From NCBI GenBank assembly GCA_029856525.1, contig JAHQXC010000023.1, positions 1 through 17,189 of the forward strand: a stretch of 17,189 bases of DNA, written 5' to 3'. The notes under the pieces are model-generated. The model was not told the origin of the DNA. It saw only the letters and a program-made list of their open reading frames with translations, and made no database searches. Both the position numbers and the translations under genes were made by a program. Position 1 is the stretch's first letter, and every line of letters begins with the position of its first letter. The stretch is from Candidatus Odinarchaeia archaeon. Its GTDB lineage: Archaea > Asgardarchaeota > Odinarchaeia > Odinarchaeales > Odinarchaeaceae. Of the stretch, positions 11,635-11,746 are shown in pieces.

Positions 11635-11703
11635 TTAAGCGGAGTATAGACTGGTAAGCGTCGAGTATTCTCCAAAAAAATTATACCTCCAACACCCCAC
11701 CAA
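11635..11703 (-). CDS. Putative aromatic-rich leader peptide of the shikimate operon (22 aa)
   Basis: TTG at 11703-11701 (or GTG at 11700) lies 6 nt after SD GAGGTG (11715-11710). It reads MVGCWRYNFFGEYSTLTSLYSA* with TAA at 11637-11635. Five aromatic codons (W, Y, F, F, Y) fall within nine consecutive positions. Confidence 0.65.
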   Translation of the reverse strand: MVGCWRYNFFGEYSTLTSLYSA

Positions 11704-11746
11704 ATCCTACACCTCTAAGATAACGCTGATAATTTAAGCATATATT

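What the first reader, a model, noticed from the sequence alone, without database searches (positions are those of the whole stretch)
11635..11715. 22-aa leader ORF carrying Trp, Tyr and Phe codons ahead of the shikimate operon
Seen: promoter, then about 20 nt of UTR with SD GAGGTG, TTG, and MVGCWRYNFFGEYSTLTSLYSA*. Six of 22 residues are aromatic and all three aromatic amino acids occur within codons 5-10. The Phe-Phe codons lie in a U7 run (11680-11674) that could also act as a termination signal when untranslated. Inference: a leader that integrates all three end products of the common pathway.
Basis: partly seen in the sequence, partly recalled or inferred. Interest (0 to 1): 0.88.

Follow-up and report, generated by a model that had tools for sequence, protein, structure and literature searches.

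The report
Two-frame translated leader, archaeal shikimate operon
The small Trp/Tyr/Phe-rich reading frame in front of the aromatic amino-acid operon of this Asgard (Odinarchaeia) archaeon is real and conserved, and it is overlapped by a second frame that stays open up to the first enzyme gene, so ribosomes reading the leader probably control the operon, a kind of control so far established only in bacteria.

Summary
On the minus strand, ORF1 (11703-11635, 22 codons) follows a conserved BRE/TATA box and the SD GAGGTG. It has Trp5, Tyr7, Phe9 and Phe10, and the Phe codons lie in a T7 run.

ORF1 is present in all 10 Odinarchaeia sequences I could fetch (8 lineages; ADH synthase 81-93% identical). 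Each has an SD and a start codon. The core C-W-R-(Y-N/Y-H/N-Y)-F-F is kept, and the Trp-to-stop distance is fixed at 18 or 13 codons.

ORF2 (+1 frame, 11675-11499) starts at a TTG at the end of the T run. It ends in a TGA that overlaps the ADH synthase start (TTGA). Its peptide is not conserved, but the frame is stop-free in 7 of 8 lineages (shuffle P 0.002-0.017 each).

So the leader is translated in two frames. Most likely ORF1 senses aromatic supply and ORF2 couples ribosomes to the first enzyme gene. My preferred switch is a +1 slip on UUU-UUY when Phe-tRNA is scarce. This is inferred, not shown.

The classical hairpin-plus-terminator attenuator is not supported.

The scan reported the same two-frame leader before, on another Odinarchaeia genome. 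No RNA data were available.

The parts
11748..11762 (-). BRE/TATA promoter element GAAAAGTATTTAAAC (TATA core 11756-11749). The predicted transcription start is near 11727.
   Evidence: CGAAAAGTATTTAA is kept in all 10 Odinarchaeia leaders. The start site is inferred from the usual archaeal TATA-to-start distance, not measured.
11710..11715 (-). Shine-Dalgarno GAGGTG of ORF1, 6-7 nt before the TTG start.
   Evidence: Invariant within the genus. An equivalent SD plus start codon is present in the more distant lineages. The spacing matches the genome-wide peak of 6-7 nt.
11635..11703 (-). ORF1: a 22-codon leader ORF, MVGCWRYNFFGEYSTLTSLYSA, ending in TAA.
   Evidence: It is open, with core C-W-R-(YN/YH/NY)-F-F, in all 10 sequences. 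The Trp-to-stop distance is 18 codons in 6 lineages and 13 in 2, although the stop contexts differ.
11674..11691 (-). Aromatic core codons TGG AGG TAT AAT TTT TTT (W-R-Y-N-F-F).
   Evidence: Synonymous or compensated variants are seen: TGT/TGC, AAT/AAC/CAC, TAT-AAC versus AAT-TAC, and TTT-TTT versus TTT-TTC.
11685..11690 (-). Internal SD-like GGAGGT, 9 nt before the ORF2 TTG. Its GGAGG core ends 6 nt before the first Phe codon.
   Evidence: GGAGG is invariant in all 10 sequences, always with 6 nt between it and the first Phe codon.
11674..11680 (-). T7 run (T6 or T5 in relatives): the Phe-Phe codons of ORF1, a candidate +1 slip site, and the spacer plus start of ORF2.
   Evidence: A run of at least 5 T lies at the same position in all 10 sequences.
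11499..11675 (-). ORF2: 58 codons in the +1 frame, from TTG 11675-11673 to TGA 11501-11499, which overlaps the ADH synthase start as TTGA.
   Evidence: The frame is stop-free in 7 of 8 lineages (shuffle P 0.002-0.017 each), while the other two frames carry 5-10 stops. The peptide is not conserved. Gene callers called the equivalent ORF in L195 and L196/L197 with a 4-nt overlap.
11634..11648 (-). Conserved block ATACTCCGCTTAAAC around the ORF1 stop, able to pair with the start region 11708-11692 (14-bp helix).
   Evidence: 97% of cells are paired in 5 sequences, but covariation is no better than in shuffles. Pairing is not better than shuffles in the distant lineages L194-L196. Its function is not shown.
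11510..11515 (-). SD GGAGGT of the ADH synthase gene, lying inside the last codons of ORF2.
10726..11502 (-). ADH synthase (DeoC/LacD-family aldolase), the first gene of the shikimate operon.
   Evidence: Pfam PF01791, E 1e-66. Sources name close relatives 2-amino-3,7-dideoxy-D-threo-hept-6-ulosonate synthase, Candidatus Odinarchaeia.

Best explanation
The 5' leader of the ADH synthase/shikimate operon is transcribed from the conserved promoter at 11762-11748 and is translated in two overlapping frames. ORF1 (22 codons) carries Trp, Tyr and two Phe codons and acts as the sensor. ORF2, in the +1 frame, has no conserved peptide. It is kept open so that ribosomes travel the roughly 175 nt up to the TTGA stop/start overlap. 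There they hand over to the ADH synthase start by termination-reinitiation. On the way they cover the U-rich leader, which would otherwise be exposed to U-tract/aCPSF1 (FttA) termination. The switch I think most likely is a +1 slip. With Phe-tRNA on the first UUU in the P site and the second Phe codon empty in the A site, the peptidyl-tRNA re-pairs one base forward within the U5-U7 run. The ribosome then continues in ORF2. Phe shortage would therefore raise operon expression, while unshifted ribosomes stop at the ORF1 TAA. Shown: the anatomy, its conservation, and selection for an open +1 frame. Inferred: translation of both frames, coupling, the frameshift, and any response to amino acids.
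For: ORF1 is conserved with an SD and start in 10 sequences from 8 lineages, with a conserved aromatic core and a fixed Trp-to-stop distance. It is the only one of 1747 intergenic sORFs with both a well-spaced SD and a W/Y/F cluster. The +1 frame is stop-free from ORF1 to the ADH synthase start in 7 of 8 lineages, with shuffle P 0.002-0.017 each, while the other frames carry 5-10 stops. In L194 the ADH synthase gene sits in a different frame relative to ORF1, yet the +1 frame is still open for 83 codons. The ORF1-start to ADH-synthase-start distance is 195, 201 or 204 nt within the genus, always a multiple of 3. The stop/start overlap TTGA or ATGA is present in 6 lineages. L200 keeps the +1 frame open for 80 codons but has no ATG, GTG or TTG in it until +94, and L198 and L200 lack the TTG at the T run. 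This fits entry by frameshift. The U5-U7 run and GGAGG 6 nt upstream of the first Phe codon are invariant. From the literature: hungry A-site codons favour +1 shifts (PMC5009743); overlapping pairs are coupled by termination-reinitiation in archaea (PMC6728339); U-tracts together with aCPSF1 terminate archaeal transcription, and this was also shown with a Lokiarchaeota orthologue (PMC8716108). Eight of 10 leaders carry a further T5-T7 run inside ORF2.
Against: There are no expression or translation data. ORF2 has its own plausible start in 8 of 10 sequences (GGAGGT, 9 nt, TTG), so a frameshift is not required. A +1 slip would sense Phe only and leaves the conserved Trp and Tyr codons unexplained. 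The GGAGG to P-site spacing is 6 nt, not the 3 nt of prfB. In G001 ORF2 stops 23 nt before the gene. In L198 it stops 113 nt before the gene and a third short ORF takes over. G000 itself has no second T run inside ORF2. Peptide-level conservation of ORF1 beyond the core is weak.
Confidence: 0.4

Rival explanations
1. Two independently initiated overlapping uORFs. ORF2 starts at its own TTG (SD GGAGGT) and couples to ADH synthase. ORF1 gates it. A ribosome held on ORF1, for example by a nascent-peptide arrest that responds to excess free aromatic amino acids as TnaC responds to Trp, would occlude the ORF2 ribosome-binding site or block ORF2 elongation and switch the operon down.
For: ORF2 has an SD and a TTG in 8 of 10 sequences, and gene callers chose that TTG in L195. 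The ORF1 core includes conserved non-aromatic residues: Cys encoded by both TGT and TGC, Arg, and Asn/His. The Trp-to-stop distance is fixed, as expected if the peptide or the ribosome position at the stop matters. Frame 0 is the most conserved frame after the Phe codons.
Against: The SD-to-TTG spacing of 9-10 nt lies in the tail of this genome's distribution. L198 and L200 lack that TTG although the frame stays open. Simple stalling at hungry Trp, Tyr or Phe codons would block ORF2 and give the wrong sign for a biosynthetic operon, so this model needs an untested ligand-dependent arrest.
Confidence: 0.25
2. A translated leader without amino-acid sensing. ORF1 and ORF2 are a constitutive ribosome-loading and coupling device, or ORF1 encodes a trans-acting micropeptide. 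The aromatic codons are largely a by-product of the SD-like UGGAGGU and the U-rich spacer read in the ORF1 frame.
For: Trp-Arg overlaps the invariant GGAGG, and Phe-Phe is the U run that ends in the ORF2 TTG. The same heptamer TGGAGGT forms the trpB2 SD. No other cognate-codon leaders (His, Thr, Leu and so on) were found in this genome, and the trpE operon has none.
Against: The Tyr codon is kept through a two-base swap, TAT-AAC to AAT-TAC. Further aromatic residues follow the core in every lineage. Strongly aromatic leader ORFs precede the aspartokinase-ADH synthase operon in another Asgard family, where 13 of the last 20 residues are aromatic and Trp is not part of a GGAGG. A conserved ORF with four Trp in eight codons precedes trpB2.
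Confidence: 0.17
3. Classical leader-peptide transcription attenuation. Ribosome position on the aromatic codons selects between alternative RNA helices, and the U7 run (or a downstream U run) acts as the conditional terminator.
For: A 14-bp helix between the ORF1 start region and the stop region can form in all five genus sequences. The ORF1 stop lies within its 3' strand. U-tracts are archaeal terminators (PMC8716108).
Against: The U7 run lies at codons 8-10, so the polymerase passes it before a ribosome can read codons 5-10. No hairpin-plus-T terminator lies between ORF1 and the gene. The helix shows no covariation beyond shuffles. Its stability at 80 C is only -2 to -5 kcal/mol. Pairing is not better than shuffles in L194-L196. 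The whole-leader fold has a z-score of -0.75. This model does not explain the open +1 frame.
Confidence: 0.08
4. Not translated at all: a small non-coding RNA or a protein-binding DNA/RNA operator upstream of a second promoter (the TATA-like AATTTTAAATA just after ORF1).
For: Conservation at the nucleotide level extends into the 5' UTR, and synonymous sites of codons 1-10 are mostly invariant. A TATA-like sequence follows ORF1.
Against: There is no Rfam match. The second TATA-like box decays in G003 and L052. Selection for an open +1 frame across unalignable sequence, lengths that are multiples of three, and the fixed ORF1 stop position all need translation that begins upstream of 11675.
Confidence: 0.05

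Closest known systems
Corynebacterium glutamicum aroR-aroF leader-peptide attenuator (Neshat et al. 2014, as summarised in PMC11802643)
   Same: A short leader ORF with mixed aromatic codons (Phe-Tyr-Phe) sits directly upstream of the first enzyme of the common aromatic pathway.
   Different: aroR is bacterial and works by ribosome stalling that selects a terminator or antiterminator hairpin. Here no such terminator was found, the organism is an Asgard archaeon, a Trp codon is included, and a second overlapping frame runs to the enzyme start.
Enterobacterial trpL and pheL-pheA attenuators
   Same: Cognate-codon leader ORFs with their own ribosome-binding site sit in the 5' leader of a biosynthetic operon. 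pheL decoding also shows +1 frameshifting (PMC3082878).
   Different: Those depend on 1:2, 2:3 and 3:4 helices plus an intrinsic terminator. The pheL frameshift was judged incidental. In the present case the +1 frame is under selection to stay open.
Programmed +1 frameshifting of prfB (RF2) and yeast Ty1 (PMC5009743)
   Same: A slippery P-site codon is followed by a slow A-site codon. As in prfB there is an SD-like element just upstream (prfB: AGGGGG-UAU-CUU-UGA; here: GGAGG-UAUAAU-UUU-UUU).
   Different: The slow codon here would be a conditionally hungry Phe codon, not a stop or a rare codon. The spacing is 6 nt, not 3. The product is a non-conserved peptide whose translation, not its sequence, would matter. 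None of this is tested.
Translational coupling by termination-reinitiation at overlapping gene pairs in archaea (PMC6728339, PMC10666635)
   Same: A co-directional stop/start overlap of 4 nt (TTGA or ATGA) links ORF2 and the ADH synthase gene.
   Different: The upstream partner is not a protein-coding gene in the usual sense. It is a fast-diverging leader frame.
Two-frame aromatic leader reported earlier by this scan on another Odinarchaeia genome (e1-5422237), and aromatic leader ORFs noted in other archaea (e1-5228272, e1-2308368, e1-4427213)
   Same: The same architecture was reported in a sister genome. The other notes describe aromatic-codon uORFs before aro operons.
   Different: Those are unchecked AI notes on other DNA. 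I reached the two-frame reading independently before seeing them.

Membership tests
Ribosome-mediated leader-peptide transcription attenuator (trpL/pheL/aroR type) | A short ORF with its own ribosome-binding site in the 5' leader of an amino-acid biosynthetic operon | tested here: met
   SD GAGGTG is followed 6-7 nt later by TTG and 22 codons. ORF1 starts 201 nt before the ADH synthase start. It is conserved in 10 sequences.
Ribosome-mediated leader-peptide transcription attenuator (trpL/pheL/aroR type) | A cluster of codons cognate to the pathway's end products | tested here: met
   Trp, Tyr, Phe and Phe lie within six codons in all 10 sequences. Among SD-bearing sORFs of the genome this is the only such cluster.
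Ribosome-mediated leader-peptide transcription attenuator (trpL/pheL/aroR type) | Mutually exclusive RNA helices (pause, antiterminator, terminator) overlapping the leader ORF | tested here: inconclusive
   One helix (start region with stop region) can form within the genus. It shows no covariation beyond shuffles, is not better than shuffles in L194-L196, and no conserved alternative partner was found.
Ribosome-mediated leader-peptide transcription attenuator (trpL/pheL/aroR type) | A terminator between the leader ORF and the first structural gene | tested here: not met
   No hairpin-plus-T site lies between 11635 and 11502 on the minus strand. In this genome the only run of at least 5 T is inside ORF1.
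Ribosome-mediated leader-peptide transcription attenuator (trpL/pheL/aroR type) | Operon expression responds to charged-tRNA supply through the leader codons | not testable with these tools
   No RNA run was listed, and the organism is uncultured.
Programmed +1 ribosomal frameshift site | A downstream ORF in the +1 frame, overlapping the upstream one and kept open | tested here: met
   The +1 frame is stop-free in 7 of 8 lineages, shuffle P 0.002-0.017 each.
Programmed +1 ribosomal frameshift site | A slippery P-site codon that can re-pair in the +1 frame | tested here: met
   UUU lies within a U5-U7 run in all 10 sequences.
Programmed +1 ribosomal frameshift site | A slow-to-decode zero-frame A-site codon | tested here: inconclusive
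   The A-site codon is Phe (UUU or UUC). It would be slow only under Phe limitation, which is an inference.
Programmed +1 ribosomal frameshift site | The downstream frame lacks, or does not need, its own initiation site | tested here: inconclusive
   A TTG preceded by GGAGGT is present in 8 of 10 sequences. It is absent in L198 and L200, and L200 has no canonical start in the frame until +94.
Programmed +1 ribosomal frameshift site | A trans-frame product is detected | not testable with these tools
   No proteomic data are available.
Translational coupling by termination-reinitiation | [quoted passage not shown] | tested here: met
   TTGA or ATGA overlap is present in 6 lineages. L194 has an 11-nt overlap. 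G001 and L198 differ.
Translational coupling by termination-reinitiation | Downstream translation depends on upstream translation | not testable with these tools
   This needs reporter assays.
Regulatory nascent arrest peptide (TnaC type) | A conserved peptide with key residues at a fixed distance from the arrest or stop site | tested here: inconclusive
   The core is conserved and the Trp-to-stop distance is fixed at 18 or 13 codons. The residues between are only weakly conserved.
Any described RNA family (Rfam 15) | A covariance-model match | tested here: not met
   There is no hit at gathering score in the window. In 11480-11800 only chance-level hits were found, E at least 3.4.

The most novel reading that the evidence does not exclude
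An amino-acid sensor built on recoding. In Odinarchaeia the aro-operon leader reads Phe-tRNA supply through a starvation-triggered +1 ribosomal slip on UUU-UUY, from a conserved aromatic mini-ORF into a sequence-free coupling frame. That frame delivers ribosomes to the first enzyme gene and shields the U-rich leader from aCPSF1-type termination. It would be an archaeal, hairpin-independent counterpart of bacterial attenuation, suited to high temperature.
Probability: 0.25. Interest if true: 0.92.

Novelty: new variant of a known kind. Interest (0 to 1): 0.8.

Why it matters
Leader-peptide control of amino-acid operons is a textbook bacterial mechanism. My literature searches found no characterised archaeal case. 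This is a conserved, statistically well-supported candidate in Asgard archaea, the closest prokaryotic relatives of eukaryotes. It does not use the bacterial hairpin terminator. It uses two overlapping translated frames and a stop/start overlap instead, which suggests how ribosome-based sensing could work with archaeal U-tract/aCPSF1 termination and at high temperature. Related aromatic leaders in another Asgard family, and a Trp-rich leader before trpB2, suggest that the principle is widespread. The anatomy gives direct handles for testing transcription-translation coupling and regulated recoding in archaea.

Tried and rejected
- **RNA evidence:** no RNA holder was listed for window:9000-13000, so no reads could be laid.
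- **Metagenome scan:** the 19-mer core gave 36 places, of which only L052 is a true homologue.
- **Genome-collection scan:** That record's title named the organism as Odinarchaeota.
- **Protein database:** a search with ORF2 found no homologue, because no candidate shared three 5-residue words with it.
- **Other cognate-codon leaders in this genome:** the His-rich and Thr-rich hits were false. One lies inside a truncated gene on the other strand and the other is next to non-biosynthetic genes. The trpE operon on contig C99 has no obvious Trp leader.
- **Bacterial promoter/terminator scan:** it found nothing relevant on the minus strand.
- **RNA structure:** the whole leader folds no better than shuffles, z -0.75. 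The start:stop helix lacks covariation and is not significant in distant lineages. The ADH synthase SD is not sequestered in a conserved way (my own inspection of the fold and the aligned sequences).
- **Coding signature:** peptide-level selection on ORF1 after the Phe codons is only weakly visible. BLOSUM score per site is 1.27 in frame 0, against 0.56 and 0.83 in the other frames. The synonymous fraction is 0.17, against 0.14 and 0.12.
- **G007 uORF:** an 11-codon, very aromatic uORF overlaps the ADH synthase start of G007 but is not conserved in its sister genome G018, so I did not count it.
- **Rejected mechanisms:** a ribosome shielding the U7 run from aCPSF1 fails on timing. Backward reinitiation from the ORF1 stop to the ORF2 start fails on distance (38 nt).

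Full report
**What is there.** The feature lies on the minus strand. After the stop of a small Ras/Arf-like GTPase gene (12470-11772) comes a BRE/TATA element GAAAAGTATTTAAAC (11762-11748). About 22-24 nt further on is the conserved TATCAGCG, where transcription probably starts (near 11727, inferred). Then follow the SD GAGGTG (11715-11710), a TTG start (11703-11701) and a 22-codon ORF ending in TAA (11637-11635). Trp5, Arg6, Tyr7, Asn8, Phe9 and Phe10 occupy 11691-11674, and the T7 run is 11680-11674. Downstream lie ADH synthase (11502-10726), DHQ synthase II, DHQ dehydratase I, aspartate-semialdehyde dehydrogenase, shikimate dehydrogenase, GHMP-type shikimate kinase, EPSP synthase, a chorismate synthase-mutase fusion and prephenate dehydrogenase. 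This is the archaeal ADH route to aromatic amino acids. Record titles and source names place the organism in the Odinarchaeia, which are Asgard archaea. The genome is a 1.32-Mb, 127-contig assembly.

**Is it more than chance?** A 5-mer SD at 5-8 nt is the norm for this genome, with the peak at 6-7 nt, and TTG is a common start. I scanned 1747 small ORFs in intergenic regions upstream of genes. Of these, 28 have such an SD, 18 have W, Y and F within six residues, and exactly one has both: this ORF. The peptide motif occurs nowhere else in the genome.

**Conservation.**
- Three sister species (G001-G003; ADH synthase 91-93% identical) and one metagenome contig (L052) carry the ORF in the same place and with the same length. 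The 110 nt between it and the gene are only about 50% identical.
- A protein search found more distant Odinarchaeia ADH synthases (81-86% identical). Their contigs keep the synteny GTPase, spacer, ADH synthase, DHQ synthase, DHQ dehydratase, ASD.
- All of them have the same promoter element, an SD plus start, and an ORF with the core C-W-R-Y-N-F-F, C-W-R-Y-H-F-F or C-W-R-N-Y-F-F.
- The codons vary (TGT/TGC, AAT/AAC/CAC, TTT/TTC). In two lineages Tyr-Asn has become Asn-Tyr by two base changes that keep one Tyr codon.
- The distance from Trp to the stop is 18 codons in six lineages, although the stop is TAA, TAG or TGA in different sequence contexts. It is 13 codons in the other two.
- After the Phe pair, frame 0 is the best-conserved frame, but only modestly so.
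- I conclude that ORF1 is very probably translated.

**The second frame.**
- The ORF listing shows a 58-codon ORF (11675-11499) in the +1 frame. Its TTG is made of the last two T of the T7 run plus the following G. Its TGA overlaps the ADH synthase TTG as TTGA.
- In G000, G002, G003, L052, L195, L196 and L200 the +1 frame has no stop from ORF1 to that overlap. The other two frames have 5-10 stops.
- Dinucleotide shuffles give P 0.002-0.017 per sequence. Because the spacers are essentially unalignable, the lineages are nearly independent.
- In L194 an indel puts the ADH synthase gene in another frame relative to ORF1. The +1 frame is nevertheless open for 83 codons and ends 8 nt inside the gene.
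- In G001 the frame stops 23 nt before the gene. In L198 it stops 113 nt before, and a further short ORF runs on to an ATGA overlap.
- Within the genus the ORF1-start to gene-start distance is 201, 201, 195, 204 and 204 nt, always a multiple of three.
- The ORF2 peptide is not conserved, and a protein database search found nothing. Gene callers did call it in two public assemblies.
- An open frame kept without peptide conservation and ending on the start of the next gene is what one expects if ribosome transit itself is selected. Stop/start overlaps are coupled by termination-reinitiation in archaea (PMC6728339).
The functional transcript must begin upstream of 11675.

**How the two frames might be linked.** ORF2 can be entered in two ways.
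- *Own initiation.* GGAGGT (11690-11685, the Trp-Arg-Tyr codons) lies 9 nt before the TTG. That spacing is in the tail of this genome's range.
- *A +1 slip from ORF1.* With tRNA-Phe on the first UUU, re-pairing one base forward is perfect within the U5-U7 run. The zero-frame A-site codon is the second Phe codon, and the +1 codon is UUG (or UCU).
- Slow A-site 'hungry' codons are the classical trigger of +1 shifts (PMC5009743).
- GGAGG always ends 6 nt before the first Phe codon. This recalls the SD-like stimulator of prfB, although there the spacing is 3 nt.
- L198 and L200 have no TTG at the T run, and L200 has no canonical start in the open +1 frame until +94. This favours the slip, but only weakly, because the chance that the start-less stretch is open by accident is about 0.06-0.1.
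- The slip is also the only simple scheme that gives the homeostatic sign. A ribosome merely stalled on codons 5-10 would sit on the ORF2 SD and start and would lower coupling.
- The main alternative with the right sign is an arrest of the ORF1 ribosome caused by excess amino acid, which would block ORF2. The conserved non-aromatic residues and the fixed Trp-to-stop distance fit that alternative.

**What is not supported.**
- The T7 run cannot be a translation-sensitive terminator of the classical kind, because the polymerase passes it before codons 5-10 can be read.
- No hairpin-plus-T terminator lies between ORF1 and the gene.
- A 14-bp helix between the ORF1 start region and its stop region can form in the five genus sequences, with 97% of cells paired. 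It has no covariation beyond shuffles, is marginal at 80 C and is not better than shuffles in L194-L196.
- The whole leader does not fold better than shuffles.
- Rfam gives nothing.
- U-tracts with aCPSF1 are nevertheless the archaeal termination signal (PMC8716108). Eight of ten leaders have a further T5-T7 run inside ORF2. Ribosomes in ORF2 could protect the transcript there. The idea that ribosomes and FttA exclude each other on the elongation complex is so far only a hypothesis (PMC11616081).

**Context that supports a sensing role.**
- In the same window a conserved 45-codon ORF ending in F-W-A-W-R-W-L-T-W-P precedes trpB2 (397-534, plus strand). It is kept in all four genus genomes with in-frame indels.
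- In another family of the same phylum (G024, G034) the operon starts with an aspartokinase gene that lies directly upstream of the ADH synthase gene.
- It is preceded by an SD GAGGTG and a mini-ORF reading (V)LWRPSFY.
- Two bases after the mini-ORF stop, and in the +1 frame, a 55-56-codon ORF begins. Thirteen of its last 20 residues are aromatic.
- This longer ORF is conserved between the two genomes with a 3-nt indel and ends in the loop of a short hairpin that is followed by a T run.
- Its core DNA (GTGTTGTGGAGG...TTTTT...ACACC) resembles the Odinarchaeia core.
- So aromatic-codon leaders before aro operons are not peculiar to one genus.

**Earlier notes of this scan.** Earlier notes report the same two-frame leader on another Odinarchaeia genome and aromatic leaders in other archaeal groups. 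I saw these only after reaching the two-frame reading, and I treat them as agreement, not as evidence.

**Known relatives and novelty.** The closest described system is the aroR-aroF attenuator of Corynebacterium glutamicum, whose leader contains Phe-Tyr-Phe (PMC11802643). Next come the enterobacterial trpL and pheL attenuators. pheL also shows +1 frameshifting, judged incidental (PMC3082878). The present element meets the first two defining features of that family: a leader ORF with its own ribosome-binding site, and cognate codons. It fails the terminator feature. I therefore describe it as working like a leader-peptide sensor but not as a member of the hairpin-attenuator family. My searches found no characterised archaeal leader-peptide control. 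Ribo-seq work in Methanosarcina only lists possible uORFs (PMC11456600).

**Verdict.** My estimates are:
- about 0.75 that the leader is translated and acts in cis on the operon;
- about 0.4 for the sensor-plus-coupler model as stated;
- about 0.25 for the +1 slip itself.

No expression data exist, so every functional step remains inferred.

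Noticed in passing
window 397-534 (+), upstream of trpB2 (600-1907): A conserved 45-codon ORF ends in F-W-A-W-R-W-L-T-W-P, with four Trp in eight codons. It is kept in all four genus genomes with in-frame indels. Its stop lies in the loop of a GTGGC/GCCAC hairpin, and a T6-T7 run lies about 20 nt before the trpB2 SD. It looks more like a classical Trp leader than the aro leader does.
   Followed up: partly
L203 (G024) and L204 (G034), leader upstream of the aspartokinase gene that precedes the ADH synthase gene; in the gene's orientation about 3990-4245 (L203, held reverse-complemented) and 4060-4330 (L204): In another Asgard family the operon leader has an SD GAGGTG and a mini-ORF (V)LWRPSFY. 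This unit is duplicated in G034. A +1-frame 55-56-codon ORF starts 2 nt after the mini-ORF stop and ends in a run where 13 of 20 residues are Tyr, Phe or Trp. A CCGCTT/AAGCGG hairpin with the stop in its loop and a T run follow.
   Followed up: partly
L205 (G031) about 3650-3800, and L207 (G040) about 5790-5930: Duplicated SD-bearing mini-ORFs that start MPCQ precede the aspartokinase-asd-ADH synthase operon of a third Asgard family. In G031 the second copy reads MPCQFTWF. An ACACCACAC segment complementary to the GTGTGGTGT of the SD region follows.
   Followed up: no
L209 (G007), about 1579-1614 in the gene's orientation (the locus is held reverse-complemented): An 11-codon ORF, MFFYGWWLFWC, overlaps the ADH synthase start. 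It has no SD and is not conserved in the sister genome G018, so it is probably chance.
   Followed up: yes
window 2811-4211 (-): Chorismate synthase is fused to a type II chorismate mutase domain (Pfam PF01264 plus PF01817).
   Followed up: no
window 6442-6946: A 500-nt gap without a long ORF lies inside the operon, between the shikimate dehydrogenase and shikimate kinase genes. Another first-reader note proposes a TnpB guide RNA there. I did not examine it.
   Followed up: no
L192 (G000 contig C99), about 517-632: A tRNA-like gene that appears to contain an intron lies about 270 nt upstream of the trpE operon. That operon has a TATA box close to its start and no Trp-rich leader.
   Followed up: no
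window 11772-12470 (-) and the same position in L194-L200: A small Ras/Arf-family GTPase gene always sits directly upstream of the aro leader across Odinarchaeia. This synteny is conserved.
   Followed up: no
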